DNA of 33,368 nucleotides, taken from sequence record NC_070909; one strand, 5' to 3'. This DNA comes from Escherichia phage Cartapus. The notes below the pieces were generated by a model. The model saw only the letters and a program-made list of their open reading frames with translations. It was not told where the DNA came from and made no database searches. Numbering within the stretch: position 1 is the stretch's first letter; the number at the start of each line of letters is the position of its first letter. Below, piece by piece: positions 33-33,368 of this stretch. A program made the translations under genes and the position numbers.

Positions 33-51
33 GGCGTGGCGGGGATACGAG
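33..51. other. cos: cos-like cohesive-end sequence (GGCGTGGCGGGGATACGAG)
   Basis: 19-nt GC-rich motif whose first 13 nt match the 186/P2-type cos end as I recall it (GGCG[T/A]GGCGGGGA...). It sits a short distance upstream of portal gene Q, as in P2. Confidence 0.35.
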
Positions 52-161: not shown

Positions 162-860
162 ATGGTTATGTTAGTGGATGACTGTCCACGATGTGGATCA
201 CAAAAAATAGCGTTTGATGTTAATGGGCTGAATTGCACTAGGGTTTACAATGCATTGGGCGGGGGTAAAACATACGAGTACGAGGTCTATTGTGTTTGCC
301 GAGAGTGTCATAAAACGACAATGTTTCTTTGCAGACCTTTAACGAAAAATAAAACTTTAGATGGCTATAATTGGGAAAGTGGAATATTCGGCTTAAAGGA
401 AGTTGCAGAGGTTGTTAGGCCTATATCACCGGCAGACTTAGCAGTAGAGGAGCCACCAGAGTTCTTACCTGAGCATATCAATAGTGCATATGAGGAAGGG
501 GCGAAATGTTTGGCTATAGGTTGTTATAATGCAGCAGCAACCATGTTTAGGCTTTGCCTTGATTATGCCACAAAAGGACTTCTTCCTGATGGGGAGCAAG
601 GGCCTGCGCAAAAAATAAGGAGAAGCCTAGGGTTAAGAATGGAGTGGTTATTTGATAATCATCTACTGCCTGAAGCTTTAAGGGAACTAGCTGAATGCGT
701 TAAAGATGACGGAAATGATGGAGCGCATGAAGGTATTTTGGATAAAGCTGCTGCTGAGGATCTTGAAGATTTTACCTATCTTTTTTTAGAACGGCTTTAC
801 ACTGAACCTCAACGCCTTATCGAAGCCAAGACAAGGCGTGAACAAAGAAGAAACAAATAA
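162..860 (+). CDS. accessory protein with N-terminal zinc-ribbon (CPRC...CRECH) and C-terminal DUF4145-like region; function unknown
   Basis: ATG at 162 preceded by GGGAGGAG 8 nt upstream. 232-aa ORF convergent with Q, lying in the cos-Q moron slot. The Cys pairs and the C-terminal GAHEG...LERLY-type region recall DUF4145 (an Abi/restriction-associated domain), from memory only. Confidence 0.6.
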   Translation: MVMLVDDCPRCGSQKIAFDVNGLNCTRVYNALGGGKTYEYEVYCVCRECHKTTMFLCRPLTKNKTLDGYNWESGIFGLKEVAEVVRPISPADLAVEEPPEFLPEHINSAYEEGAKCLAIGCYNAAATMFRLCLDYATKGLLPDGEQGPAQKIRRSLGLRMEWLFDNHLLPEALRELAECVKDDGNDGAHEGILDKAAAEDLEDFTYLFLERLYTEPQRLIEAKTRREQRRNK

Positions 861-1903: not shown

Positions 1904-3669
1904 CAAAAAATCTCCACAATATTGCTGGTATTGGCGGATTCGCCCTGCAGCGGTTCGTTAAACAGTGCGTGCATCGTTGCCCAGGCCAGATCGGCGTGGC
2001 TGGCTTCTTCGCTGCGGCTGGCTTCATAGGTCGGGCGGTTGCCACTGGCGGTGGTGGCGCGACGGATTGCCATAAAGGACTGCGCTATGTCGGTGTGTCC
2101 GGCGTCAAACTCCAGACGGCGGTGGCTGATAATGTCGTAGGCCTTGAGTACCAGGGCGTTTTTAACGTTGGGGTTGTAGACAAACTCCCGGACGGCAGGA
2201 AAAAACGCTTTCACGTTCTCGTAAACCCCGTGACCAACGCCGGTTGAGTCGATACCGATATAGGTCACGTTGTACTGTTCGGTCAGTTTTTTGATGGCGT
2301 CAGCCTGGGCGCGGAAGTCCATTCCGCGCCACTGGTGACGCTCAAGAATGCGGAACTTACCGCCCGGCACGGCTGGCGGCGCCACCACCACGCATCCGGC
2401 GCTGTCGCCGTTCTGCGTACCTTTCGCCGGGTCATATCCGATCCACACTTCGCGCCAGCCAAACGGGCGCAGGGCCAGTGCATGAAAGTCGGTCCAGACT
2501 TCCCAACTGTCCACCATGCACGCCTGCAGCTCGCTGAGCGGGAACACGGACGCGAGATCGTCCACGAACTCGCACATCAGCAGGTTCTGGTATTCGTCCG
2601 GGCTGTACTCCATGCGCAACTGGTCAAGGTCGAACAGGTTACAGCCGCCGCGCACCGCATCTTCCACGGTGACTATCTGGCGGTACTGCCCGTCTGCGCA
2701 CAGCAGGCCGGGGGCCAGATTGCTGTGGGACAGGTCGATGTCCACCTTATCGGCTTTGTTGCGCCCTCGGTTGAACAGCGCACCGGACCAGAACGGATAA
2801 GCACTGTGTGTCAGGCTGGATGGCGTGGAAAAATAGGTTTGTCGCCATTTTTTGTGAATAGCCATACCGGAAGCCACTTTGCGCAGCTCCTGGAATTTCG
2901 GTATCCAGAAATATTCATCCAGATACAGGTTGCCGTGGTAACTCTGGGCCGTGCGGGCATTGGTGCCGAGGAAGTAAAGCGTGGCCCCGTTAGGAAGCAC
3001 CATCGGATCGCCTTTCAGTTCCACATCCACTTCTTTGGCGAAGTCGATGATGTACTGCTTAAAGACGTGGGCCTGTGCCTTACTGGCGGAAAGGAAAATC
3101 TGGTTACGTCCGGTCAGCAGGGCGTCAATCAGGGCTTCACGGGCAAAGTAAAAGGTCGCGCCGATCTGGCGAGACTTCAGCAGGTTGCGGATGCGATTGG
3201 TTTTTCCGGCTTCCCACCAGTGGCGCTGGTAGTTGAACATGGAGGAATGGAAGATTTCTTCCAGCTTCTCAATCTGTTCATCGGTGAAAACATTCTTTTC
3301 CGGCTGACGGCGCGGCCCTTTGTTGCGGTTGGCGACGTTAGGGTTTAAGTCGGCTTCGTTGCCGCCATTGTTAAACTTGCCGATCCGCGCGTGGCGCTCC
3401 GACTGGCGCGCCAGCAGGTCAATTTCTTTGAAATCTTTCCCTTCTTTGTGCTCCTTCATAATGAGCTGGCAGTAGCGGGCGGCGGTGGTGAGCTGCATCT
3501 GATCCAGCGGCCCATAGTCACCCCACTTGTCGCGTTTTTTCCAGCTGTGAACGGTTGCAACTTTCTCGCCCAGCATTTCAGCAATGCGGGCTACGCGGTA
3601 TCCCTGAAAGTACAGCAGCATGGCCTGCCGACGGGGATCGAGATCTGCGGGTGTCAGTGTGGTGTTCAT
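1903..3669 (-). CDS. P: terminase large (ATPase) subunit (P2 gpP-like)
   Basis: 588-aa ORF, ATG at 3669-3667, immediately upstream of and overlapping Q. Size and position as P2 P. Confidence 0.9.
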   Translation of the reverse strand: MNTTLTPADLDPRRQAMLLYFQGYRVARIAEMLGEKVATVHSWKKRDKWGDYGPLDQMQLTTAARYCQLIMKEHKEGKDFKEIDLLARQSERHARIGKFNNGGNEADLNPNVANRNKGPRRQPEKNVFTDEQIEKLEEIFHSSMFNYQRHWWEAGKTNRIRNLLKSRQIGATFYFAREALIDALLTGRNQIFLSASKAQAHVFKQYIIDFAKEVDVELKGDPMVLPNGATLYFLGTNARTAQSYHGNLYLDEYFWIPKFQELRKVASGMAIHKKWRQTYFSTPSSLTHSAYPFWSGALFNRGRNKADKVDIDLSHSNLAPGLLCADGQYRQIVTVEDAVRGGCNLFDLDQLRMEYSPDEYQNLLMCEFVDDLASVFPLSELQACMVDSWEVWTDFHALALRPFGWREVWIGYDPAKGTQNGDSAGCVVVAPPAVPGGKFRILERHQWRGMDFRAQADAIKKLTEQYNVTYIGIDSTGVGHGVYENVKAFFPAVREFVYNPNVKNALVLKAYDIISHRRLEFDAGHTDIAQSFMAIRRATTASGNRPTYEASRSEEASHADLAWATMHALFNEPLQGESANTSNIVEIF

Positions 3670-3715
3670 GGCACAAACCTACAGCCTTGAATGAAGGCTT
3701 TCCCCGCCTGCGGTT

Positions 3716-3733
3716 TGTGTGGTTGTCGGTACA
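3716..3733. promoter_or_regulatory. TGT-N12-ACA dyad (Ogr-type late-promoter activator site) in the divergent P/O promoter region
   Basis: tgtGTGGTTGTCGGTaca in the P-O intergenic region, roughly 80 nt upstream of the O start. P2 late promoters carry a TGT-N12-ACA element near -55. Confidence 0.4.
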
Positions 3734-3811
3734 AATACCGCGCATTGTTTCACTGCCCCCATCACCGCAACCATAAGGCTCCAGTAAGTTTTTTCTAACG
3801 GAGCACGGCTC

Positions 3812-4645
3812 ATGACAGTGAAAGCAAAGCGTTTTCGCATCGGGGTGGAAGGTGCCACTACCGACGGACGCGAAATCCAGCGTGAATGGCTGGAACAGAT
3901 GGCAGCCAGCTACAACCCGGCGGTGTATACCGCGCTGATTAACCTTGAGCACATTAAGTCTTATCTGCCGGACAGCACGTTTAACCGCTACGGCAAGGTG
4001 ACGGCGCTGTTTGCTGAAGAAATCGCGGAAGGTCCGCTGGCAGGCAAGATGGCACTGTATGCCGACGTTGAGCCAACGGAGTCCCTGGTGGAACTGGTGA
4101 AAAAAGGCCAGAAATTATTCACCTCTATGGAAGTCAGCCCGAAGTTTGCTGATACGGGCAAAGCCTACCTGGTCGGCCTGGCTGCCACTGATGATCCCGC
4201 CAGTCTGGGTACGGAAATGCTGACATTCAGCGCCAGTGCAGCCCATAACCCGCTGGCAAACCGCAAGCAGAATCCTGCCAATCTTTTTACCGCTGCAGAG
4301 GAAACGGTGATCGAACTGGAAGAAATCCAGGAGGACAAGCCGTCCCTGTTTGCCCGCGTCACGGCGCTGTTTACCAAAAAAGAGCAGTCCGATGACGTCC
4401 GGTTCTCTGATGTGCATAAGGCCGTGGAACTGGTCGCCACTGAGCAGCAGAACCTGAGCACGCGCACCGAAAAATCCCTGTCTGAGCAGGAAGAACGCCT
4501 GTCTGAGCTGGAGACTGCTCTGCAGGAGCAGCAAACCGCCTTTAACGAACTGGTGGATAAGCTGAGTCATGAAGACAGCCGCCAGGACTACCGCCAGCGT
4601 GCAACAGGCGGCAACGCCCCCGCTGACACTCTGACCAATTGCTGA
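3812..4645 (+). CDS. O: capsid scaffolding protein (P2 gpO-like)
   Basis: 277-aa ORF, ATG with ACGGAG RBS, divergent from P. Acidic coiled-coil-like C-terminus. Order P-O-N as in P2. Confidence 0.85.
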   Translation: MTVKAKRFRIGVEGATTDGREIQREWLEQMAASYNPAVYTALINLEHIKSYLPDSTFNRYGKVTALFAEEIAEGPLAGKMALYADVEPTESLVELVKKGQKLFTSMEVSPKFADTGKAYLVGLAATDDPASLGTEMLTFSASAAHNPLANRKQNPANLFTAAEETVIELEEIQEDKPSLFARVTALFTKKEQSDDVRFSDVHKAVELVATEQQNLSTRTEKSLSEQEERLSELETALQEQQTAFNELVDKLSHEDSRQDYRQRATGGNAPADTLTNC

Positions 4646-22793: not shown

Positions 22794-22817
22794 AACCTGC
22801 TACGGCAGGTTTTTATT
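22794..22817. terminator. hairpin plus T-tract between convergent ogr and the WYL/BRCT gene
   Basis: AACCTGC-TACG-GCAGGTT followed by TTTTATT, 8 nt after the ogr stop. It overlaps the 3-prime end of the minus-strand gene, so it may act in both directions. Confidence 0.6.
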
Positions 22818-23295
22818 CATCTGGGATCTCACCCGTTTCAAGAAAATGTATAAAGCCAGGCTCATCTATGATGATAGTGCCTTTCATCCTGGCTGCCGAT
22901 ACTTTTGATGGGCCTGCATTGTAACCGCAACAGAGCATCTGAAGGTTTTGGGTTACAGATGTTCTTACCGTTAATCCTTGTTCATTCGCCTTATCAACCA
23001 ACCTTTCTTTATCTGCTTTCTTAAATCCGGTGAAACACACATCGAATGTATTTTTTTTCGGACCTGACTGCTTAGTGAGATGTGAGTAGTTTTCGGGGAG
23101 GAATGACGCGCATTCCTGAATGGCTTGTTCTTGTGAATCGTATTGTTTAAGAATGCGGTCTTTTCGGAAGGTTTTTATTCGATCGGTGTTCTTACAAATG
23201 CCCTGTATGTGATTTTCGCTATAACTGATGCTCTGTATTGAGTGAACACCGATACGACCATTTGCATTGATGTAAACAAAGTGAAGTTCTTCCAT
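22813..23295 (-). CDS. small protein with WYL-like N-terminal region and C-terminal BRCT-like domain; function unknown
   Basis: 160-aa ORF, ATG at 23295 with an AAGAGG RBS. C-terminus (DVCFTGF...GLTVRTSVTQNL...GPSK...IIIDEPGFIHFL) resembles the BRCT domain of NAD-dependent ligases. N-terminus (GRIGVHSIQ...IKTFRKDRI) resembles a WYL domain. Both by recalled motifs only. Confidence 0.5.
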   Translation of the reverse strand: MEELHFVYINANGRIGVHSIQSISYSENHIQGICKNTDRIKTFRKDRILKQYDSQEQAIQECASFLPENYSHLTKQSGPKKNTFDVCFTGFKKADKERLVDKANEQGLTVRTSVTQNLQMLCCGYNAGPSKVSAARMKGTIIIDEPGFIHFLETGEIPDE

Positions 23296-23582: not shown

Positions 23583-24788
23583 TCATGGTTTAATATGGGC
23601 ATATACTTGAATTTCATCCATACAAGTTTCGAGTTTATAAAAGTCAGTTAAATTATAGATGTTCAAAATTTCATCATCTATGCTTCCTGTTAGCTCACGA
23701 TTTTTTCTTCTTCGTAGCCTTCTGCTGAGATTCTCTCGATCGGATTGTGCAACTGATTCAGGCACGTACTCAACTGTTTTTAGGACCTGCCAAGATACAG
23801 GCAATGTGAATTTGAAAATTTTCGCTAGATTTGGACAAAATTCATTATTGGCCATCTCCTCGTAACGCACTTTTGGAGGAAGTACCACATTTATTCCTCT
23901 GCTACCTAAGGCATTAGCAGGTAATTTTGTTGAGCGGTAGGCTATACCAACAACATTCTCATTGCTGTTCCGACTGATCCATTGCATCAAAAGATTGGGG
24001 ATAATATATTCTTGTACAAAGGAAGCATTGTCATATTTTTTTAAATAATTGCATGCAATTATCAAAGGCCAAAGTGCTAAATATGAGAGTTTGGTATTGA
24101 AATCATATTTGTTCTTTCTTTTTGACTCTAATATAGATCTCTGTTTATATAAAAAATCAGGTCCTATATTTAGTACCTTTGAGTCATTATTTTTATCGAT
24201 CTTGTAGGCAGATATATATAGCTTATCAAAATCTGGCTTATCCATTTCTCTCCAGCATATATAAAGAGATGTTCCTAAATATAAACAGGGTAGACCAGCA
24301 ACTGAAAATCTCTGTGCTCTAACAAAGTGACGCTGACTGAACGGAATATGAAACATATCTCTTCTTGATGTAAGTGGCGTATCAGATTTTCTAACGCGGA
24401 ATAATGGTTTATCTTCATTACATAAGTCAGAAAGAGGTATGCATATATTTTCAATATGACGAGATATAGTTCGTGGCTCTAGCATACTTTCAAATGAGTC
24501 ATATGCCGACTTAATATCCCCTGATAAAAAACACTCTAAACACGAGACGATTTCTTTCTGCATGATATCTACAGCTCTAAGTCTATTGCGCAAGCGTAAA
24601 CTTAACCTGTTATCATTTTCCTGGATGTAATCTACTAAACAACCCCGGAATTTACTGCATTTTAGAGCGAAGTCATCTATCAAAGTAAGGTTTTTTTCAA
24701 TCTCAATTGGTGGTCGAATACTTGATTTTTTTCTAATAGTGTCAAAAAGATTATTAAGTTCTTCATCGAGTTCTTGTTGAATATGCAT
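23583..24788 (-). CDS. large accessory protein with a RES-domain-like core (possible NAD+-targeting toxin-type fold); function unknown
   Basis: 401-aa AT-rich ORF, 9 nt downstream of the int stop. The central segment ...FRVRKSD...QRFSVAGLPCLYLGTSLYICWRE... parallels the Arg / Tyr-x-x-x-Ser / Glu core of RES toxins (MbcT/ParT type) as recalled. No adjacent antitoxin-like ORF. Confidence 0.5.
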   Translation of the reverse strand: MHIQQELDEELNNLFDTIRKKSSIRPPIEIEKNLTLIDDFALKCSKFRGCLVDYIQENDNRLSLRLRNRLRAVDIMQKEIVSCLECFLSGDIKSAYDSFESMLEPRTISRHIENICIPLSDLCNEDKPLFRVRKSDTPLTSRRDMFHIPFSQRHFVRAQRFSVAGLPCLYLGTSLYICWREMDKPDFDKLYISAYKIDKNNDSKVLNIGPDFLYKQRSILESKRKNKYDFNTKLSYLALWPLIIACNYLKKYDNASFVQEYIIPNLLMQWISRNSNENVVGIAYRSTKLPANALGSRGINVVLPPKVRYEEMANNEFCPNLAKIFKFTLPVSWQVLKTVEYVPESVAQSDRENLSRRLRRRKNRELTGSIDDEILNIYNLTDFYKLETCMDEIQVYAHIKP

Positions 24789-24797
24789 TTTTATTTA

Positions 24798-25814
24798 TCA
24801 CTTTAAGTTAAATAAGGGGTTTTTAGTAACAGCATCTTCAAGATGTTCTGGTGCGAAATGGGCATAGACCATTGTCATTTTTATATCTGAGTGCCCTAAA
24901 ATATCTCTCAATACAAGAATATTTCCGCCATTCATCATAAAGTGACTAGCGAATGTATGGCGCAATACATGCGTGCACTGGCCCTCTGGCAAGTCAATAC
25001 CTGCTCTTTTTACTGCACGCTCAAAAGATTTTCTGCATGGCGTGAATAACTTCCCTCTGTTTTTGGGGAGTTCGTGATACAGATCTTGAGATATTGGTAC
25101 TGTTCTGTTTTTCTTGCCCTTTGTCTTTGTATAAGTAATTCGGTATTTCGATATTTGGTGGCCCTGAAGGTTTTCGGCTTCACTCCACCGTGCGCCGGTA
25201 GCTAAGCATATTTTTGCAATCATTAGTAGGCTCGGGCTTTGAGATTCAGCACATGCAGCCAACAGGCGCTTGATTTCGTCCACGGAAAGAAAAGCCAGCT
25301 CACCTTCGGTAATTTTGAAGGTCGGAAGTCCTGCCAGCGGGTTTGGTGCTGACCAGTGTCCTAGTTTTTTTAATGTACCGAACACCGATGATAGATTGCG
25401 CTGTTCAAGGTTTACCGTGCGGGGCTTAACGGGCGACATAAGCGTGCCATCTTCATTTCGTACTTCACCTTTTAACCGTGCTTCGCGGTATTTCGTAAAG
25501 TCACCGGCTGTTAGTTCTGAGGCGATGGGATCGCCTAGACCATTACAGATAATTCTAAGTTTCGCCATGAGGCGCTTGGGGTCTGCGAGTGTTTGACCAT
25601 ACAGGGAATACCACTGCTCAATTAATTCTGATAGGTGTCGCCGATCTTCCTTTTCCCCCAGCCATGGTTTTTTGTTCACTTCTTCCATTGTGAAGCTTTC
25701 AAAAGCAATGGCTTCGCCTTTCGTAGCAAATTGCTTACGCACGCGCTTGCCATTGCGTCCATTGGGATAGCACTCGCACAACCATTTACCGTTTGGCTGT
25801 TTTCTGACAGTCAT
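24798..25814 (-). CDS. int: tyrosine integrase (phage integrase family)
   Basis: 338 aa. C-terminal ...HVLRHTFASHF...LGHSDIKMTMVYAHF carries the R-H-R-Y catalytic signature. Adjacent to attP and the repressor gene. Confidence 0.9.
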   Translation of the reverse strand: MTVRKQPNGKWLCECYPNGRNGKRVRKQFATKGEAIAFESFTMEEVNKKPWLGEKEDRRHLSELIEQWYSLYGQTLADPKRLMAKLRIICNGLGDPIASELTAGDFTKYREARLKGEVRNEDGTLMSPVKPRTVNLEQRNLSSVFGTLKKLGHWSAPNPLAGLPTFKITEGELAFLSVDEIKRLLAACAESQSPSLLMIAKICLATGARWSEAENLQGHQISKYRITYTKTKGKKNRTVPISQDLYHELPKNRGKLFTPCRKSFERAVKRAGIDLPEGQCTHVLRHTFASHFMMNGGNILVLRDILGHSDIKMTMVYAHFAPEHLEDAVTKNPLFNLK

Positions 25815-27363: not shown

Positions 27364-27564
27364 ATGCTGACGAAAGAACCATCATTTGCATCGCTGCTGG
27401 TAAAACAAAGTCCGGCAATGCACTACGGTCACGGCTGGATAATGGGTAAGGATGGTAAACGCTGGCATCCGTGCCGTTCACAAGATGAATTGCTGGCAGA
27501 ACTATCAACGAAAAAACGGGGGAACAAATGGCTATTGAAGGCGCTGCGGCGACTGTTCCATTAA
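27364..27564 (+). CDS. hypothetical small early protein
   Basis: Track ORF 27334-27564. ATG at 27364 (MLTKEPSF...), 66 aa, basic C-terminus. Confidence 0.4.
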   Translation: MLTKEPSFASLLVKQSPAMHYGHGWIMGKDGKRWHPCRSQDELLAELSTKKRGNKWLLKALRRLFH

Positions 27565-27664
27565 GCCCCGGCGAACGCCTGAATGGACTTAATCACATTG
27601 CGGAATTAAGGGCGAAAGTTTTGGCCTTAATATTGAGTCAGAGCTTGAGCGGTTTATTAAAGAT

Positions 27665-27868
27665 ATGCGTGATCCACGGGATATCAATAATGAACAAAAT
27701 AAACGGGCACTGGCTGCCATATTCTTTATGGCAAAAATTCCAGCTGAACGTCATAGCATCAGCATTAGTGAGCTGACCACTGATGAAAAGCGGGAGTTGA
27801 TTAAAGCAATGAATCATTTTCGTGCAGTGGTGAGCTTATTTCCAAGACGGCTAACCATGCCGAATTAA
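27665..27868 (+). CDS. hypothetical small early protein
   Basis: 67-aa ORF. Alternative overlapping ORF 27528-27776 makes gene choice here uncertain. Confidence 0.3.
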   Translation: MRDPRDINNEQNKRALAAIFFMAKIPAERHSISISELTTDEKRELIKAMNHFRAVVSLFPRRLTMPN

Positions 27869-27935
27869 CCAACTAATGAAATTAATGGCGTAAACCCGCC
27901 GGGCATCCCTTTATCTAAATTCAGGAGAATTGATT

Positions 27936-28396: not shown

Positions 28397-29250
28397 GCAC
28401 CATCCTGAAATGGGCGGGAAATAAAACCGCCAATATGTCCGAACTGAAAAAACACCTTCCTGCTGGCCCGCGACTGGTTGAACCTTTCGCGGGTTCCTGT
28501 GCTGTGATGATGGAGACGGATTACCCCAGCTATCTGGTTGCGGATATTAATCCTGATTTAATCAACCTCTATAAAAAGGTTGCCGCTGATTGTGAATCGT
28601 TTATATCTCGCGCCAGAGTTTTATTTGAGATCGCAAACAGGGAGGTGGCTTATTACAACATAAGGCAGGAGTTTAATTACTCCACTGAAATTACTGATTT
28701 CATGAAAGCGGTATATTTCCTGTATCTCAATCGTCACGGTTACCGTGGTTTATGTCGTTATAACAAGAGCGGGCATTTCAACATTCCCTACGGTAATTAT
28801 AAAAATCCGTATTTCCCTGAAAAAGAAATTCGTGCATTTGCAGAAAAAGCCCAGCGGGCAACATTTATCTGCGCCAGCTTCGATGAAACGCTGGCAATGT
28901 TGCACGCGGGAGATGTGGTGTATTGCGATCCGCCGTATGACGGTACGTTTTCCGGCTATCACACTGATGGTTTCACTGAAGATGACCAGTATCACCTGGC
29001 ATCCGTTCTTGAACATCGGTCATCAGAAGGACATCCAGTCATTGTTTCTAACAGTGACACATCCCTGATCCGTTCGCTGTATCGCAATTTTACTCACCAC
29101 TATATCAAGGTAAAACGCAGCATCGGTGTGGCAGCTGGCGAGGGTAAATCAGCAACAGAAATCATTGCTGTTTCCGGGCCGTGCTGCTGGATGGGATTTG
29201 ATTATTCGCGTGGCGTGGATAGTTCTGCCGTGTACGGAGTACGTGCATGA
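28393..29250 (+). CDS. dam: DNA adenine methyltransferase (Dam-like, N6-adenine, DPPY motif)
   Basis: Track ORF 28333-29250. ATG at 28393 with GGAGG RBS gives [11 protein letters not shown]..., like the Dam N-terminus. Catalytic DPPY is present (VYCDPPYDG). Confidence 0.85.
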
Positions 29251-31661
29251 CTCATGCCGATATGAACAACTGCTGCGGCTTTAACGAGGCTGCCGCAGCA
29301 TTCTCATGGAACAGCCCGAAAAAGGCCATTAACCCTTATCTGGACCCGGCGGAAGTTGCGCCGGTTTCTACGCTTTCAAACCTGATCACTCTGTACGCTG
29401 CCGATAACGAGCAGGAACAGTTGCGCCGCGAGGCACTGAGTGATCAGGTCTGGGAGCGTTATTTCTTTAATGAATCACGTGATCCTGTCCAGCGCGAAAT
29501 GGAGCAGGATAAGCTCATTAGCCGGGCAAAGCTGGCGCATGAGCAGCAGCGTTTTAATTCAGACATGGTCATTCTGGCGGACGTCAACGCCCAGCCTTCC
29601 CATATCAGCAAGCCGCTGATGCAACGTATTGAATACTTCAGCAGCCTGGGCAGGCCAAAGGCTTATTCCCGCTATTTACGTGAGACGATTAAGCCATGTC
29701 TGGAACGACTGGAGCATGTACGCGACAGTCAGCTATCTGCATCTTTTCGCTTTATGGCAAGCCATGAAGGGCTGGACGGCCTGCTGATCCTGCCTGAAAT
29801 GAGTCAGGATCAGGTGAAACGCCTGTCCACCCTGGTAGCTGCGCATATGAGTATGTGCCTTGATGCAGCTTGTGGTGATTTGTATGCCACCGATGACGTT
29901 AAGCCAGAAGAAATCCGCAAGACATGGGAAAAGGTGGCAGCGGAAACCCTGCGTCTGGATGTCATCCCACCTGCGTTTGAGCAACTCCGTCGGAAAAGAA
30001 ACCGCCGTAAACCCGTGCCCTATGAACTCATTCCGGGTTCGCTGGCGCGTATGTTGTGCGCCGACTGGTGGTATCGGAAATTATGGAAGATGCGTTGCGA
30101 ATGGCGGGAAGAGCAGTTGCGCGCTGTTTGCCTGGTCAGCAAAAAAGCATCTCCTTATGTCAGCTATGAAGCCGTGATGCATAAACGTGAGCAGCGCCGT
30201 AAGTCGCTGGAGTTTTTCCGTTCTCATGAACTGGTGAACGAAGACGGCGACACGCTGGACATGGAGGATGTGGTAAACGCCAGCAGCAGCAACCCTGCGC
30301 ATCGCCGCAATGAGATGATGGCCTGTGTTAAAGGTCTGGAGCTTATCGCGGAAATGCGCGGTGACTGCGCCGTTTTCTACACTATCACCTGTCCGTCGCG
30401 TTTCCATTCCACGCTAAATAACGGCAGACCAAACCCGACCTGGACAAACGCGACGGTAAGACAAAGCAGCGATTATCTGGTCGGCATGTTTGCTGCATTT
30501 CGTAAGGCGATGCACAAAGCCGGGTTGCGCTGGTATGGCGTGCGGGTGGCTGAGCCGCATCATGATGGCACAGTTCACTGGCACCTGTTGTGTTTCATGC
30601 GCAAAAAAGACCGCCGTGCCATCACTGCATTACTGCGTAAGTTTGCCATCCGTGAAGACCGCGAGGAGCTGGGCAATAACACTGGGCCGCGCTTTAAGTC
30701 TGAGTTGATTAACCCGCGCAAAGGAACGCCGACAAGCTACATCGCGAAATATATCAGTAAGAACATTGACGGTCGTGGTCTGGCTGGCGAGATCAGCAAG
30801 GAAACGGGTAAATCTCTGCGTGATAACGCTGAATACGTGAATGCCTGGGCGTCTTTGCATCGTGTTCAGCAATTCCGCTTCTTTGGCATTCCGGGGCGTC
30901 AGGCTTACCGTGAACTGCGATTGTTGGCTGGTCAGGCGGCAAGGCAACAGGGGGACAAAAATGCAGGTGCGCCGGTACTGGATAACCCGCGTCTTGATGC
31001 CATTCTGGCTGCTGCTGATGCTGGTTGTTTTGCCACCTACATCATGAAGCAGGGCGGCGTACTGGTTCCCCGTAAATATCACCTCATCAGAACCGCTTAT
31101 GAAATCAACGAAGAGCCGACCGCCTATGGCGATCACGGCATTCGTATTTATGGCATCTGGTCACCCATTGCAGAGGGCAAGATCTGCACTCATGCAGTGA
31201 AGTGGAAAATGGTTCGTAAAGCCGTTGACGTTCAGGAGGCGGCAGCCGACCAGGGCGCTTGCGCCCCTTGGACTCGTGGCAATAACTGTCCCCTTGCTGA
31301 AAATTTGAACCAACAAGGGAAAGACAAATCAGCTGATGGGGATACCAGAACGGAAATCACCCGCATGGATGACAAGGAATTGCACGATTACCTGCACAGT
31401 ATGAGCAAAAAAGAGCGCCGGGAACTGGCAGCAAGGTTACGCCTGGTTAAACCGAAACGGCGTAAAGACTACAAACAGCGAATTACAGATCATCAGCGAC
31501 AGCAGCTCGTCTATGAACTGAAGTCCAGAGGATTTGATGGCAGCGAGAAAGAGGTCGATTTACTCCTTCGCGGCGGCAGTATTCCGTCAGGAGCAGGCCT
31601 GCGTATCTTCTATCGGAACCAGCGTCTGCAGGAGGATGATAAATGGCGGAACCTGTATTAA
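29247..31661 (+). CDS. A: replication initiation endonuclease (P2 gpA-like rolling-circle initiator)
   Basis: 804-aa ORF overlapping the dam stop. Contains a [13 protein letters not shown] active-site tyrosine motif. Size and position as P2 A. Confidence 0.9.
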
Positions 31662-31753: not shown

Positions 31754-31773
31754 TACTGTAAATATAAACAGTG
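31754..31773. promoter_or_regulatory. LexA (SOS) box TACTGTAAATATAAACAGTG
   Basis: CTGT-N8-ACAG with an AT-rich spacer, about 40 nt upstream of the tum-like ORF start. Confidence 0.6.
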
Positions 31774-31813: not shown

Positions 31814-32002
31814 ATGCAGGACTATTTTTTGGAGTCTTTGAAGCTCCAGCGCATTGATTTTTTTCTTAAGCTTGTAGCGGCTAGTGAGTGTAGTGATGAA
31901 GAGAAGGGGCTGGCCCTGCAGTGGGTTTCTGAACTGACAGATGAACTCATGGCAAAAATCAGAACCCACGAATACAACCGCTCAATGGATGTCATCAGCT
32001 GA
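31814..32002 (+). CDS. tum: Tum-like SOS-inducible antirepressor (putative)
   Basis: 62-aa ORF with AGGAGGA RBS directly downstream of the LexA box, followed by a DinI-like ORF, as at the phage 186 tum locus. Confidence 0.45.
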   Translation: MQDYFLESLKLQRIDFFLKLVAASECSDEEKGLALQWVSELTDELMAKIRTHEYNRSMDVIS

Positions 32003-32012
32003 GGTGACTTTT

Positions 32013-32246
32013 ATGCGCATTGAAATAATGATCGATAAAGAGCAGAAGATTAGCCAGTCTACCCTGGACGCTCTGGAGTCCGAGCTTTACCGCAACCTGC
32101 AACCCATCTATCCCAAGACAGCTATCCGCATCCGTAAAGGGTCGGCAAACGGCGTTGAGCTGAGTGGCTTAAAGCTTGATGAAGACAAAAAGCGGGTGAT
32201 GGAAATTATGCAGCAGGTTTGGGAAGACGACAGCTGGCTGCACTAA
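32013..32246 (+). CDS. DinI-like protein
   Basis: Track ORF 31941-32246. The ATG at 32013 gives MRIEIMIDKEQKISQSTLDALESELYRNLQ..., closely parallel to E. coli DinI as recalled. 77 aa. Confidence 0.75.
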   Translation: MRIEIMIDKEQKISQSTLDALESELYRNLQPIYPKTAIRIRKGSANGVELSGLKLDEDKKRVMEIMQQVWEDDSWLH

Positions 32247-32319
32247 GGAACGTTCCTGATGTAAGAACTTGATTCTGACGTCAGCAAGGTTGAACAACGA
32301 GAGTAGCGAGGCGTTAGCC

Positions 32320-32580
32320 ATGGGTAAAAAAGACAGTAATCACCAGATTATTTATCGGGGCCAGGTGCTGGAACGGTTTACCCCTGGCGGCTGGGTCTTC
32401 TTTCAACGCCCAAAGGAGTGTGGCGGAGGTTTTTGGTTGGGCCGCACCTATGAAGACTGCTTCTGGCTTGAGCTGGAATTCCCCGTTTCGCTATATGACG
32501 GCCTGGAGTTTTTGATGGAAGTCACCAGGGTAGAGCAGAGAAGTGATGAGGTTGACGCGAATTATTCCCTGTTTGATTAA
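32320..32580 (+). CDS. hypothetical protein (accessory, cos-proximal)
   Basis: Track ORF 32269-32580. ATG at 32320 (MGKKDSNHQIIYRGQ...), 86 aa. No domain recognised. Confidence 0.4.
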   Translation: MGKKDSNHQIIYRGQVLERFTPGGWVFFQRPKECGGGFWLGRTYEDCFWLELEFPVSLYDGLEFLMEVTRVEQRSDEVDANYSLFD

Positions 32581-32628
32581 AAATGTATTAGCTTATAATG
32601 GAATACTATTTTTGCAGGTGGGGGCGCA

Positions 32629-33240
32629 ATGGATTTAGTCTTTAAAATTCTGGCTTCGTTGGGTGGGGTGTCTTTTGTTGCATCTGGCATATTTGTTTGG
32701 ATCGGGAAAGTTTATTTAGAAAGATATAAGTCGCGGCTAAACAAAGATATTGCTGAATTTCAATCACAACTGAGTGCAACTAATGAAAGAATAAAGGCTA
32801 AGTTAGACAATTCTGTTTATGTAACGAAAGCGTATTTTGATAAGGAGTTATCAGCATATAGTCTCATTTGGAATTCGATGTTTGAAACCAGAGAAAGCGT
32901 GCTTAAGCTGAGGCCTGCGCTGGATCATTTTGACCCCAACGAACCATTTGAAGAGAGAAAATTTAGAAGGTTGAAAGTTTTTTTCGATGCATTTAATACT
33001 TTTGTTACAAGTGTTGAGTCTAACAAACCGTTCATCTCACCAGAGGTTTATATAATCTTGGACCGTTTCCGGAAGGAATGCCTTTCAGAGTCAATATCGT
33101 TTCAGCATGGCGATCCAGAATTTGACTGGCAAAATTATTGGAAAGAGGCAGAGTTGAACCGTACAACCATCACCAAGCTTTTTGATGAGACGTGTGATGC
33201 AATTCGAGACAGGATGCACACATTAACTGTGGTTACGTAG
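32629..33240 (+). CDS. hypothetical membrane-anchored protein (accessory, cos-proximal moron)
   Basis: 203-aa AT-rich ORF with one N-terminal hydrophobic helix (LVFKILASLGGVSFVASGIFVWIG), then a charged, probably helical region. Followed by a terminator. Confidence 0.5.
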   Translation: MDLVFKILASLGGVSFVASGIFVWIGKVYLERYKSRLNKDIAEFQSQLSATNERIKAKLDNSVYVTKAYFDKELSAYSLIWNSMFETRESVLKLRPALDHFDPNEPFEERKFRRLKVFFDAFNTFVTSVESNKPFISPEVYIILDRFRKECLSESISFQHGDPEFDWQNYWKEAELNRTTITKLFDETCDAIRDRMHTLTVVT

Positions 33241-33330
33241 TTTTCCAAAAAGTCTCGATGCCCGCTTTGGCGATTGTGCATGTCTATGCCGCATGAATCC
33301 GCATGATCGTTTGAGGATCGTTTTAGCTGA

Positions 33331-33356
33331 GGCCCGCTAGGAATGGCGGGCTTTTG
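33331..33356 (+). terminator. rho-independent terminator
   Basis: GGCCCGC-TAGGAATG-GCGGGC followed by TTTTGC, about 90 nt after the stop of the 203-aa ORF. Confidence 0.55.
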
Positions 33357-33368
33357 CTTATGTCATGC

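What the first reader, a model, noticed from the sequence alone, without database searches (positions are those of the whole stretch)
32320..33240. Cos-proximal cargo: 86-aa ORF plus 203-aa membrane-anchored protein after the tum/dinI module
Downstream of A and the SOS-controlled tum/dinI-like pair, and just before the right genome end, lie two ORFs that are visibly AT-richer than the core genome: an 86-aa protein with no recognisable domain and a 203-aa protein with a single N-terminal transmembrane helix and a charged helical body, ending in a clean terminator. This is the other side of the same cos-spanning accessory locus that holds old/tin in P2. A single-pass membrane protein here could be a superinfection-exclusion or abortive-infection factor, and the pair might work together.
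Basis: partly seen in the sequence, partly recalled or inferred. Interest (0 to 1): 0.6.

Follow-up and report, generated by a model that had tools for sequence, protein, structure and literature searches.

The report
Two unrelated prophage accessory genes beside cos
The two ORFs are real and expressed, but they are separate genes: a small SOS-switched protein that is often mutated away, and a self-promoted membrane-anchored protein from a large unstudied family that may block other phages, though that is untested.

Summary
The window is prophage Cartapus of E. coli LF82, a P2/186-like phage opened near cos. Both ORFs exist as described: orf86 at 32320-32580 and orf203 at 32629-33240.

Only orf203 is AT-rich (38.6% GC against 51% for the genome). 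orf86 is 49.8% GC.

They are not a pair.
- orf86 (phrog_2100) occurs without orf203 in P22-like, SSU5-like, Serratia and Klebsiella phages. Published LF82 RNA-seq shows it following the LexA-controlled orf62-dinI operon. It is broken in 15 of 21 related viral contigs.
- orf203 is intact in all 21, with dN/dS about 0.12-0.14. It is transcribed when orf86 is silent, and Misson et al. 2023 already list it as a Cartapus moron (LF82_789).

orf203 belongs to a large unannotated family (915 clusters at 50% identity, no Pfam or PADLOC match). Members have one N-terminal membrane helix, a predicted cytoplasmic stalk of variable length, and a conserved four-helix bundle. They occur singly on phages, satellites, integrative elements and in one defence island.

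orf203 sits where phage 186 has orf97 and P2 has tin/old. A single-gene phage-exclusion role is the most likely reading, but it is untested. The arrangement is already catalogued, untested, in Rousset et al. 2022. The gene across cos is a RAZR/PD-T7-4-like defence gene.

The parts
31754..31772 (+). LexA box (TACTGTAAATATAAACAGT) of a p95-like SOS promoter upstream of orf62
   Evidence: It is the only site in the window that matches TACTGT-N8-ACAGT, found at 31754-31772 on the + strand and again, with one mismatch, on the opposite strand at the same place. 0.33 matches are expected by chance; 7 of 100 shuffles gave two or more. Phage 186 has an annotated LexA site in p95 at the same relative position. 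Published RNA-seq shows the downstream genes switch on in macrophages while A and the portal gene stay silent.
31814..32002 (+). orf62 (phrog_698), first gene of the SOS operon (CARTA_44); it occupies the position of the N-terminal part of 186 Tum (inferred from position, not tested for homology)
   Evidence: Expression log2(fpkm+5) 4.3 in LB and 10.9 in macrophages at 6 h.
32013..32246 (+). DinI-family gene (CARTA_45)
   Evidence: Pfam DinI, 86.1 bits. Expression 3.0 in LB and 9.2 in macrophages at 6 h.
32320..32580 (+). orf86 (WP_000516592.1, CARTA_46, phrog_2100): small soluble alpha/beta protein, distal gene of the SOS operon
32573..32599 (+). Putative own promoter of orf203 (TTGATT, 15 nt, TATAAT), overlapping the orf86 stop codon; an AGGTGG ribosome-binding site lies at 32616-32621
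   Evidence: The sequence is conserved from E. coli to Enterobacter phages even where orf86 is decayed. In condition B6, orf86 reads about 2.7 against orf203 about 8.6 on the log2 scale, so a transcript must start here. The scan tool did not report it because it requires a 16-18 nt spacer.
32629..33240 (+). orf203 (WP_000366628.1, LF82_789, CARTA_47, phrog_26391): bitopic inner-membrane protein with membrane helix at residues 7-26, stalk at about 27-62, and four-helix bundle at about 63-202
   Evidence: dN/dS 0.12-0.14. Published as a moron, 7-fold above the prophage background.
33329..33359 (+). GC-rich hairpin followed by UUUUGCUU; probable end of the transcript, lying inside the conserved cos flank
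   Evidence: Fold -24.2 kcal/mol, z = -3.4. Conserved with cos in all relatives. Not detected by the terminator scan.
33..51 (+). cos cohesive-end-like sequence GGCGTGGCGGGGATACGAG; homology between relatives ends at about window 60
   Evidence: P2 cosR annotation used for comparison.
162..860 (+). Neighbour across cos: Cys4 zinc-ribbon plus DUF4145 protein (WP_000245245.1, CARTA_1), RAZR/PD-T7-4-like; this is the truly variable cargo slot
   Evidence: Pfam DUF4145 30.3 bits against a cut-off of 23.1. PADLOC PD-T7-4 E = 1.2e-6. RAZR architecture from PMC13017515. Present next to orf203 in only 4 of 21 contigs.

Best explanation
The interval holds two unrelated and independently regulated accessory genes of prophage Cartapus (E. 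coli LF82, P2/186-like).

orf86 is the distal gene of the LexA-controlled orf62-dinI SOS operon. It is a small soluble protein of a family scattered through early and accessory regions of many temperate enterobacterial phages. It is dispensable in this setting and is decaying.

orf203 is an autonomous moron. It has its own promoter, was acquired horizontally (AT-rich), is expressed in the lysogen and is under purifying selection. It encodes a bitopic inner-membrane protein with a short N-terminus outside, one membrane helix carrying a conserved GG motif, a cytoplasmic stalk of variable length, and a conserved four-helix-bundle head of about 135 residues. It belongs to a large unannotated family that travels as a single gene on phages, satellites and integrative elements.

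Inferred, not shown: it acts alone as a phage-exclusion factor. The membrane-tethered cytoplasmic head would recognise a component of an incoming or developing phage. The protein would then either block an early step at the membrane or disturb the membrane through oligomerisation (abortive infection). This would be functionally analogous to orf97 of 186 and tin/old of P2, which occupy the same slot.
For: Shown:
- Identity. The window is 100% identical to LF82. Cartapus is 33,368 bp, the length of the window.
- Independent distribution. orf86 homologues occur in the P22-like ea region, in SSU5, in Serratia BZS1, and after dinI in a Klebsiella P2-like phage carrying different cargo.
- Independent partners of orf203. 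orf203 at 83% identity sits at the same site in other P2-like phages (one contig from Enterobacter bugandensis), with four different right-hand cargos: AIPR, RVT_1 plus STM3845, an OLD-like ATPase, or a 223-aa unknown protein.
- Decay. orf203 is intact in 21 of 21 IMG/VR contigs. orf86 is intact in 6 of 21. The lesions are a stop at Q15, ATG to AAG, and ATG to CTG plus a frameshift.
- Selection. dN/dS is 0.12-0.14 at dS about 0.75.
- Expression, from Misson 2023 S1 Table, log2(fpkm+5) in conditions BLB, B1, B6, MB1, MB6:
  - orf62: 4.3, 5.5, 4.4, 9.9, 10.9
  - dinI: 3.0, 4.4, 3.7, 7.9, 9.2
  - orf86: 3.2, 3.4, 2.7, 5.0, 7.6
  - orf203: 5.5, 7.2, 8.6, 9.0, 10.5
  - A and portal: about 2.5-2.9 throughout
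- LF82_789 is listed as a moron in their Table 1.
- Family. There are 915 clusters at E <= 1e-3 and none matches Pfam or PADLOC. 214 of 231 full-length members have a single N-terminal membrane helix. Mean K+R count is 0.45 on the N side against 2.98 on the C side, and 206 of 214 members carry more on the C side. E73, P134 and R195 are invariant; F70, W81, L94, R95, P96, F135, E154, I192 and R193 are nearly so.
- Context of distant members. One lies beside a type IIG restriction-modification gene and Abi_alpha. Another lies next to an integrase and AlpA. Others are in a Corallococcus prophage, in integrase/resolvase/Prim-Pol elements, next to HigB, and near cI in Pseudomonas phage Riah.
- Slot analogy. 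186 has p95-LexA-tum-t95a-orf97 ('expression from plasmid blocks 186 infection')-t95b-cosR. P2 has tin and old before cosR.
- Rousset 2022 defines the A-to-Q region as a defence hotspot and lists this arrangement.
Against: - No phenotype exists for orf203 or for any family member.
- It has no sequence relation to Orf97, Tin, the DUF4145 neighbour or any PADLOC model.
- A cytoplasmic head is unlike classical periplasm-facing superinfection-exclusion proteins.
- Only about a dozen contexts were examined by hand, and several show no defence or mobile-element marks.
- Eleven E. coli genomes carry a decayed copy.
- Transcription rises in macrophages, which would also fit a host-adaptation role.
- The promoter is inferred from conservation and the RNA-seq step, not mapped, and its 15-nt spacer is suboptimal.
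Confidence: 0.5

Rival explanations
1. orf86 and orf203 form a two-gene system, such as sensor plus membrane effector or toxin plus antitoxin.
For: They are adjacent, on the same strand and 48 nt apart. Wherever orf203 is found in E. coli, orf86 or its remnant lies beside it.
Against: - orf86 is broken in 15 of 21 contigs while orf203 is intact in all 21.
- orf86 homologues occur in many phages that lack orf203.
- Distant orf203 relatives have no conserved neighbour.
- Expression is uncoupled: about 2.7 against 8.6 in condition B6.
Confidence: 0.05
2. orf203 is a lysogenic-conversion or host-fitness factor unrelated to phage defence, for example one that modulates envelope or stress physiology and helps LF82 inside macrophages.
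For: - It is a lysogen-expressed moron whose transcript rises from log2 5.5 in LB to 10.5 in macrophages at 6 h.
- It has no match to defence models.
- Some family members sit in ordinary chromosomal contexts.
Against: - CI and the RAZR-like gene show a similar rise from LB to the other conditions, so the increase is not specific to orf203.
- The family spans Enterobacteria, myxobacteria, Nitrospira and Clostridia and is mostly on mobile elements. That fits a conflict function better than a niche-specific one.
- It sits in the slot of known exclusion genes.
Confidence: 0.25
3. orf203 serves the phage's own cycle. Examples would be excluding homologous phage during induction or modulating lysis timing as the last gene of the SOS operon, rather than protecting the lysogen against other phages.
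For: - It lies downstream of the LexA-controlled operon, and no recognisable terminator was found by eye in the dinI-orf86 or orf86-orf203 spacers, although the scan flags a weak site inside orf86.
- Its transcript is highest when the SOS operon is on.
- 186 orf97 in the same slot blocks 186 itself.
- In P2-like phages it always abuts the conserved cos flank.
Against: - It is strongly expressed when the SOS operon is off (B6).
- It is present in only about 1% of complete E. coli genomes, whereas 1134 of 5426 match at least part of the 1,719-bp query, mainly its conserved left end around the orf62-dinI module.
- Family members occur in non-phage elements and in unrelated phages at other positions.
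Confidence: 0.15
4. Concerning orf86 only: it is an early or SOS-expressed host-takeover or counter-defence protein, active when the prophage or an infecting phage starts development.
For: - It is switched on with the SOS operon.
- Its homologues sit at the distal end of the early-left 'ea' region of P22-like phages and in early accessory blocks of Serratia and SSU5-like phages.
- It is small, well folded (pLDDT 83) and without a known fold.
Against: - There is no homology to any known anti-defence protein.
- It is frequently pseudogenised.
Confidence: 0.2

Closest known systems
Phage 186 SOS operon (p95, LexA site, tum, t95a, orf97, t95b, cosR)
   Same: Same backbone position and order: A, then a LexA-controlled promoter, then Tum/DinI function, then accessory gene(s), then cos. 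The record notes that 186 orf97 blocks 186 infection when expressed from a plasmid, which makes it a positional precedent for an exclusion gene.
   Different: Tum is split here into orf62 plus DinI. Orf97 is homologous to neither orf86 nor orf203 (hhalign probability 0.3%). orf203 has its own promoter and is expressed without SOS induction. No t95a-like terminator was found by eye in the dinI-orf86 spacer.
P2 tin/old and the A-to-Q cos-proximal defence hotspot (Rousset et al. 2022, PMC9122126)
   Same: The genes lie between gpA and gpQ next to cos. The exact arrangement 'hypothetical + DinI + hypothetical + hypothetical + DUF4145' is in their Table S5A. tin and old are lysogen-expressed exclusion genes on the same side of cos.
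   Different: tin and old are transcribed leftwards from near cos. There is no homology to Tin. This arrangement is not among the systems whose testing the main text describes. In this lineage the rapidly swapping slot is to the right of cos, while orf203 is a more stable passenger on the left.
Four-helix-bundle sensor domains of histidine kinases and chemoreceptors (Adeh_2942 4k0d, TorS 3i9w, Tar/Tsr)
   Different: Those domains are periplasmic and return to a second membrane helix. orf203 has one membrane helix and a predicted cytoplasmic bundle. There is no Pfam 4HB hit. Designed bundles score nearly as high, so the resemblance is fold-level only.
Single-gene membrane-anchored prophage exclusion proteins (for example T4 Imm and Sp, lactococcal Sie2009, P22 SieA, HK97 gp15; from general knowledge)
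   Same: Small prophage- or early-expressed inner-membrane proteins that act alone. Like them, orf203 is a lysogen-expressed moron.
   Different: There is no sequence or model match. orf203 carries a large cytoplasmic helical head on a stalk, whereas classical exclusion proteins act at or outside the membrane on DNA entry. No phenotype is known.
RAZR / PD-T7-4 (ring-activated zinc-finger RNase; PMC13017515), relevant to the neighbour at window 162-860 and not to the finding itself
   Same: N-terminal Cys4 zinc ribbon plus C-terminal DUF4145 (HEPN-like), single gene, in a defence hotspot.
   Different: The match to the PADLOC model is weak (E = 1.2e-6). The position eight residues before the conserved His189 is Lys181 rather than Arg. 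It is not homologous to orf203.

Membership tests
Cargo of the P2-like gpA-gpQ cos-proximal hotspot (Rousset 2022) | Located between the replication gene A and the portal gene Q, next to cos | tested here: met
   A is at 29247-31661, orf86 and orf203 at 32320-33240, cos at 33-51, and the portal gene at 869-1906 on the minus strand.
Cargo of the P2-like gpA-gpQ cos-proximal hotspot (Rousset 2022) | Accessory: present in a minority of related phages, with variable neighbours | tested here: met
   orf203 is in 52 of 5426 complete E. coli genomes, whereas 1134 match at least part of the 1,719-bp query, mainly its conserved left end. The right-hand cargo differs among carriers. The arrangement is listed in Table S5A.
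Phage 186-type SOS operon | LexA box in the promoter upstream of a Tum/DinI gene | tested here: met
   TACTGT-N8-ACAGT at 31754-31772. DinI Pfam 86.1 bits. 186 annotation used for comparison.
Phage 186-type SOS operon | SOS-type expression, uncoupled from lytic genes | tested here: met
   Published RNA-seq shows orf62, dinI and orf86 rising in macrophages while A and the portal gene stay at the floor. orf203 does not depend on this pattern.
Phage 186-type SOS operon | Homology of the distal gene to 186 Orf97 | tested here: not met
   hhalign probability is 0.3% for both the orf203 family and the orf86 family against Orf97.
Known anti-phage defence or exclusion systems (PADLOC 2.0, P2 Tin) | Sequence match to a described defence protein | tested here: not met
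   There are no PADLOC hits for orf86 or orf203. Among 64 family members only scattered hits appear, each to one to three members. Tin hhalign probability is 0.25%.
Known anti-phage defence or exclusion systems (functional class) | Expression in the lysogen from its own promoter (moron) | tested here: met
   LF82_789 is 7-fold above the prophage background in LB. It is expressed when the upstream gene is silent. A conserved TTGATT-N15-TATAAT lies upstream.
Known anti-phage defence or exclusion systems (functional class) | Confers resistance to phage infection | not testable with these tools
   This needs plaque and efficiency-of-plating assays. No publication was found under the accession numbers or PHROG ids.
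Four-helix-bundle periplasmic sensor domains (4HB_MCP, TorS, NarX type) | Four-helix up-down bundle continuous with a membrane helix | tested here: inconclusive
Four-helix-bundle periplasmic sensor domains (4HB_MCP, TorS, NarX type) | Periplasmic location between two membrane helices | tested here: not met
   There is a single hydrophobic segment; only 1 of 231 members has a second. Positive charges fall on the C-terminal side in 206 of 214 members.
Tad2 / DUF2829 (name a source gives to one orf86 homologue, P0074) | Pfam DUF2829 match or Tad2-like fold | tested here: not met
RAZR / PD-T7-4 (neighbour gene at window 162-860) | N-terminal Cys4 zinc ribbon plus C-terminal DUF4145/HEPN domain in a single gene | tested here: met
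   Cysteines at 8, 11, 44/46 and 49. DUF4145 30.3 bits against a cut-off of 23.1. PADLOC PD-T7-4 E = 1.2e-6. Architecture as described in PMC13017515.
RAZR / PD-T7-4 (neighbour gene at window 162-860) | Catalytic Arg and His (R146 and H154 in RAZR-Ec) | tested here: inconclusive
   His189 is present in GNDGAH. The residue eight positions upstream is Lys181, and Arg174 lies further upstream. No alignment to RAZR-Ec itself was possible.

The most novel reading that the evidence does not exclude
orf203 is the founding, experimentally tractable member of a new and widespread single-gene anti-phage family. The family comprises about 900 clusters at 50% identity across Proteobacteria, myxobacteria, Nitrospira, Firmicutes and their phages. 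In this reading, a membrane-tethered cytoplasmic four-helix-bundle head on a stalk of variable length senses a phage component and acts through the membrane anchor. That architecture is absent from current defence catalogues.
Probability: 0.35. Interest if true: 0.65.

Novelty: new member of a known kind. Interest (0 to 1): 0.45.

Why it matters
If orf203 excludes phages, it would add a compact, single-gene, membrane-anchored family of about 900 clusters to the known defence repertoire. It would also explain one of the two published 'unknown' morons of a prophage in the Crohn's-disease-associated strain LF82.

The locus also shows that the P2 A-to-Q hotspot has internal structure. To the left of cos there is a stable SOS operon and a semi-stable moron. 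To the right of cos there is a fast-swapping slot, here holding a RAZR-like gene.

If orf203 has no anti-phage effect, it is simply one more expressed prophage gene of unknown function.

Tried and rejected
- Sequence-family searches on orf86 and orf203 returned only coiled-coil noise or PHROGs of unknown function. The libraries were Pfam, NCBIfam, PADLOC and PHROGs.
- Profile searches against PDB sequences found nothing.
- A BFVD fold search with orf203 gave no hit at E <= 0.001. The tempting hit to HP1 orf1, from a P2-like phage, was tested by hhalign and rejected (probability 0.2%).
- Homology of orf203 to 186 Orf97, P2 Tin and the DUF4145 neighbour was rejected.
- The afdb50 fold library was not available.
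- The search for related loci with the diverse alignment failed because no stretch was conserved enough. Distant contexts were therefore sampled one at a time.
- The promoter and terminator scan reported neither the promoter nor the terminator proposed here. Both rest on conservation, folding and RNA-seq.
- Literature searches by accession number and PHROG id found nothing. The LF82 CRISPRi preprint and the 2026 NAR paper on P2/P4 hotspots do not mention these genes in their main text.
Full report
**What the window is.** The last 1.7 kb of the window is 100% identical to the E. coli LF82 chromosome. In LF82 this sequence continues directly into the first genes of the window: a DUF4145 gene, then the portal, terminase and capsid genes. 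Misson et al. 2023 (PMC9928086) name the P2-related prophage of LF82 'Cartapus' and give its size as 33,368 bp, which is the window length. The window is therefore the circularised Cartapus genome opened about 30 nt before a cos-like sequence, GGCGTGGCGGGGATACGAG, at window 33-51.

**Check of the observation.**
- Both ORFs are present: 86 aa at 32320-32580 and 203 aa at 32629-33240.
- They follow A (29247-31661) and then a 62-aa ORF plus a DinI-family gene (Pfam 86.1 bits).
- That pair is preceded by the only perfect TACTGT-N8-ACAGT LexA-box match in the window, at 31754-31772.
- orf86 has no Pfam, NCBIfam or PADLOC match. It belongs to phrog_2100, of unknown function.
- orf203 has one hydrophobic segment at residues 7-26 and an all-helical body.
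- The composition claim holds only for orf203: GC 0.386 and GC3 0.387, against 0.510 for the genome. orf86 is 0.498.
- The 'clean terminator' is a GC-rich hairpin plus UUUUGCUU at about 33329-33359 (-24.2 kcal/mol, z = -3.4). It lies within the roughly 230-bp cos-flanking block conserved in all relatives, and the consensus scan did not report it.
- In P2, tin and old lie between A and cosR. That is the same side of cos as these ORFs, not the other side.

**The two ORFs are not a functional pair. Three lines of evidence agree.**
1. Distribution.
   - orf86 homologues (50-62% identity) occur in four settings without orf203. These are the distal 'ea' region of P22-like Salmonella phages, phage-plasmid SSU5, Serratia phage BZS1, and directly after dinI in Klebsiella P2-like phage ST13-OXA48phi12.1. 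That Klebsiella phage carries an ATPase plus RloB cargo instead.
   - Conversely, orf203 at 83% identity sits at the same place in other P2-like phages (one of these contigs is from Enterobacter bugandensis). There it has four different right-hand neighbours: a 223-aa unknown, AIPR, STM3845 plus reverse transcriptase, or an OLD-like ATPase.
2. Decay.
   - In 21 IMG/VR contigs that carry orf203, orf203 is intact in all 21. orf86 is intact in only 6.
   - At least three independent lesions are involved: Q15 to stop in 9 contigs, ATG to AAG in 1, and ATG to CTG plus a frameshift in the Enterobacter-type contigs.
   - orf203 shows dN/dS of 0.12-0.14 at dS about 0.75.
3. Expression. The S1 Table of Misson et al. 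gives log2(fpkm+5), with a floor of 2.32, for five conditions. The main text defines BLB (LB, stationary phase) and MB6 (THP1 macrophages, 6 h). I take B1 and B6 to be bacteria-only controls and MB1 to be macrophages at 1 h. The values in the order BLB, B1, B6, MB1, MB6 are:
   - A: 2.5, 2.5, 2.8, 2.5, 2.8
   - orf62: 4.3, 5.5, 4.4, 9.9, 10.9
   - dinI: 3.0, 4.4, 3.7, 7.9, 9.2
   - orf86: 3.2, 3.4, 2.7, 5.0, 7.6
   - orf203: 5.5, 7.2, 8.6, 9.0, 10.5
   - DUF4145 gene: 4.7, 7.1, 7.6, 9.2, 9.6
   - portal: about 2.5-2.9 throughout
   - CI: 5.0, 8.3, 8.1, 9.3, 8.1

orf86 therefore behaves as the distal, attenuated gene of an SOS operon. That operon is on in macrophages while the lytic genes stay off. 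orf203 is transcribed in B6, when orf86 is at the floor, so a transcript must start between them.

A TTGATT-15 nt-TATAAT element at 32573-32599 overlaps the orf86 stop codon. It is conserved even where orf86 has decayed, and an AGGTGG ribosome-binding site follows at 32616-32621. Misson et al. list this gene (LF82_789, CARTA_47) as one of only two Cartapus morons, 7-fold above the prophage background.

**Anatomy and family of orf203.**
- AlphaFold2 (pLDDT 81.5) predicts one continuous helix over residues 2-92, covering the membrane helix, the stalk and the first bundle helix. Three more helices follow at 107-131, 138-160 and 167-202, closing an up-down four-helix bundle.
- The word-based search found only 17 close relatives, named from Enterobacter, Citrobacter and E. 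coli where a source gives a name. An exhaustive profile search found 915 cluster representatives at E <= 1e-3, of which 384 were at E <= 1e-10. Among the 150 listed, most are about 190-230 aa and match along most of their length.
- None of 64 diverse members matches a Pfam or PADLOC family beyond coiled-coil noise, and all 64 fall in phrog_26391.
- Of 231 full-length members, 214 have a single N-terminal membrane helix and only one has a second hydrophobic segment.
- Positive charges average 0.45 on the N side and 2.98 on the C side, with more on the C side in 206 of 214 members. By the positive-inside rule the helical body is cytoplasmic.
- Longer members simply have a longer stalk; there are no domain fusions.
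- E73, P134 and R195 are invariant. F70, W81, L94-R95-P96, F135, E154 and I192-R193 are nearly invariant. A GG pair in the membrane helix and an LGKVW motif at the cytoplasmic boundary are conserved in the consensus. By their positions along the helices, these residues cluster at the two ends of the bundle. They may be structural salt bridges or a binding surface. I could not map them in three dimensions.

**Genomic contexts of distant orf203 relatives.** No partner gene is conserved. The contexts sampled are:
- beside a type IIG methylase-nuclease and Abi_alpha;
- directly after an integrase and AlpA in a satellite-like element inserted in a phage;
- in a Corallococcus prophage with RusA and a P4-cII-like gene;
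- next to an IS element and a truncated HsdM in Nitrospira;
- in Prim-Pol, integrase and resolvase elements;
- beside HigB-HTH and a resolvase;
- near the CI repressor of temperate Pseudomonas phage Riah, confirmed by hhalign at 99.7% probability;
- between the terminase genes of a Clostridium phage;
- three contexts with no obvious marks.

This is the signature of a single-gene mobile accessory module.

**Structure of the hotspot.**
- Alignment of carriers shows continuous homology from the orf86 remnant through orf203, the hairpin and cos to about window 60. After that point the sequences are unrelated.
- The fast-swapping slot is therefore between cos and the portal gene. In LF82 it holds a Cys4 zinc-ribbon plus DUF4145 gene (Pfam 30.3 bits, PADLOC PD-T7-4 E = 1.2e-6).
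- That is the architecture of RAZR, a ring-activated zinc-finger RNase that works by abortive infection (PMC13017515).
- Only 4 of 21 orf203 carriers have the RAZR-like gene.
- Rousset et al. 2022 defined the A-to-Q region as a defence hotspot. Their Table S5A lists this exact five-gene arrangement by accession. The main text does not mention testing it.

**Comparison with 186 and P2.** Phage 186 has p95 with a LexA site, then tum, the partial terminator t95a, orf97, t95b and cosR. The record notes that orf97 'expression from plasmid blocks 186 infection'. Cartapus has the same layout, with orf86 and orf203 in the orf97 slot. Neither family is homologous to Orf97, to P2 Tin or to the DUF4145 neighbour.

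**Most likely mechanism.**
- Shown: orf203 is an autonomous, lysogen-expressed, selectively maintained gene. It was horizontally acquired and encodes a membrane-anchored protein of a large mobile family.
- Predicted from sequence, not shown experimentally: the helical head is cytoplasmic.
- Inferred: it acts alone as a phage-exclusion factor. Its tethered head would recognise a phage component at the cytoplasmic face of the membrane. Its conserved glycine-rich anchor and stalk would mediate oligomerisation, leading either to a block of an early step or to membrane perturbation (abortive infection).
- I put this at about 0.5.
- The main rival is a host-fitness moron unrelated to phage (0.25). 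It is supported by the rise in macrophages, although CI and the RAZR-like gene rise similarly from LB.
- A role in the phage's own induction or lysis gets 0.15, and the two-gene system 0.05.

**Novelty and verdict.** The locus type is known, the arrangement is catalogued, and orf203 is already published as an expressed moron of unknown function. This analysis adds three things:
- the demonstration that the two ORFs are independent;
- the size, conserved topology and mobile single-gene habit of the orf203 family;
- the finer structure of the hotspot.

I class it as a new member of a known kind, a prophage hotspot moron and candidate exclusion gene. Interest is moderate at 0.45. It would rise if a phage-resistance phenotype were shown.

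Noticed in passing
window 162-860 (+): The gene just across cos is a Cys4 zinc-ribbon plus DUF4145 (HEPN-like) protein. That is the architecture of the recently characterised RAZR / PD-T7-4 abortive-infection RNase. The match to the PADLOC model is weak (E = 1.2e-6). Lys181, not Arg, sits eight residues before the conserved His189. It is expressed in the lysogen (CARTA_1).
   Followed up: partly
window 32579-32612: An imperfect 20-nt inverted repeat (AAAAATGTATTAGCTTATAA / TTATAATGGAATACTATTTT) is centred on the putative -10 of the orf203 promoter and is largely conserved in Enterobacter phages. It could be an operator for an unknown regulator.
   Followed up: no
window 31814-32580; published RNA-seq: In LF82 inside macrophages the SOS operon (orf62, dinI, orf86) is strongly on, up to log2 10.9. 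A, the portal gene and the other lytic genes stay at the detection floor. So the Tum-like module is transcribed without lytic induction of Cartapus.
   Followed up: partly
L022 3501-4112 and other RefSeq E. coli genomes: In many RefSeq genomes the orf203 allele WP_020218871.1 is annotated 'valyl-tRNA synthetase'. This is probably a mis-annotation caused by the weak coiled-coil similarity to Val_tRNA-synt_C (Pfam E = 0.009, below the cut-off).
   Followed up: partly
L020 and L021, about 3500-4100 (E. coli strains 550 and 2015C-3121): Eleven E. coli genomes carry a copy of orf203 at about 91% identity, broken by frameshifts and stops where inspected (L020, L021). It lies in a degraded remnant next to a phosphoribosyltransferase plus DprA pair. 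Rousset 2022 validated a DprA plus PRTase pair as a P2-hotspot defence system.
   Followed up: partly
window 22813-23295 (-): The other published Cartapus moron (LF82_783, 'putative exonuclease', 15-fold above background) maps here, next to the inferred att junction at about window 23417/23418. It has only a sub-threshold BRCT match and a weak PADLOC PDC-S48 hit (E = 1.7e-7).
   Followed up: partly
window 23583-24788 (-): A 401-aa ORF lies between the inferred att junction and the integrase gene (24798-25814). It has no Pfam or PADLOC match. The int-att interval is a minor defence hotspot of P2-like phages according to PMC13586616.
   Followed up: partly
window about 27530-27870 (L001 1879-2219): RefSeq annotates a frameshifted DUF5347 pseudogene in the early operon of Cartapus, overlapping the fil-like gene.
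   Followed up: no
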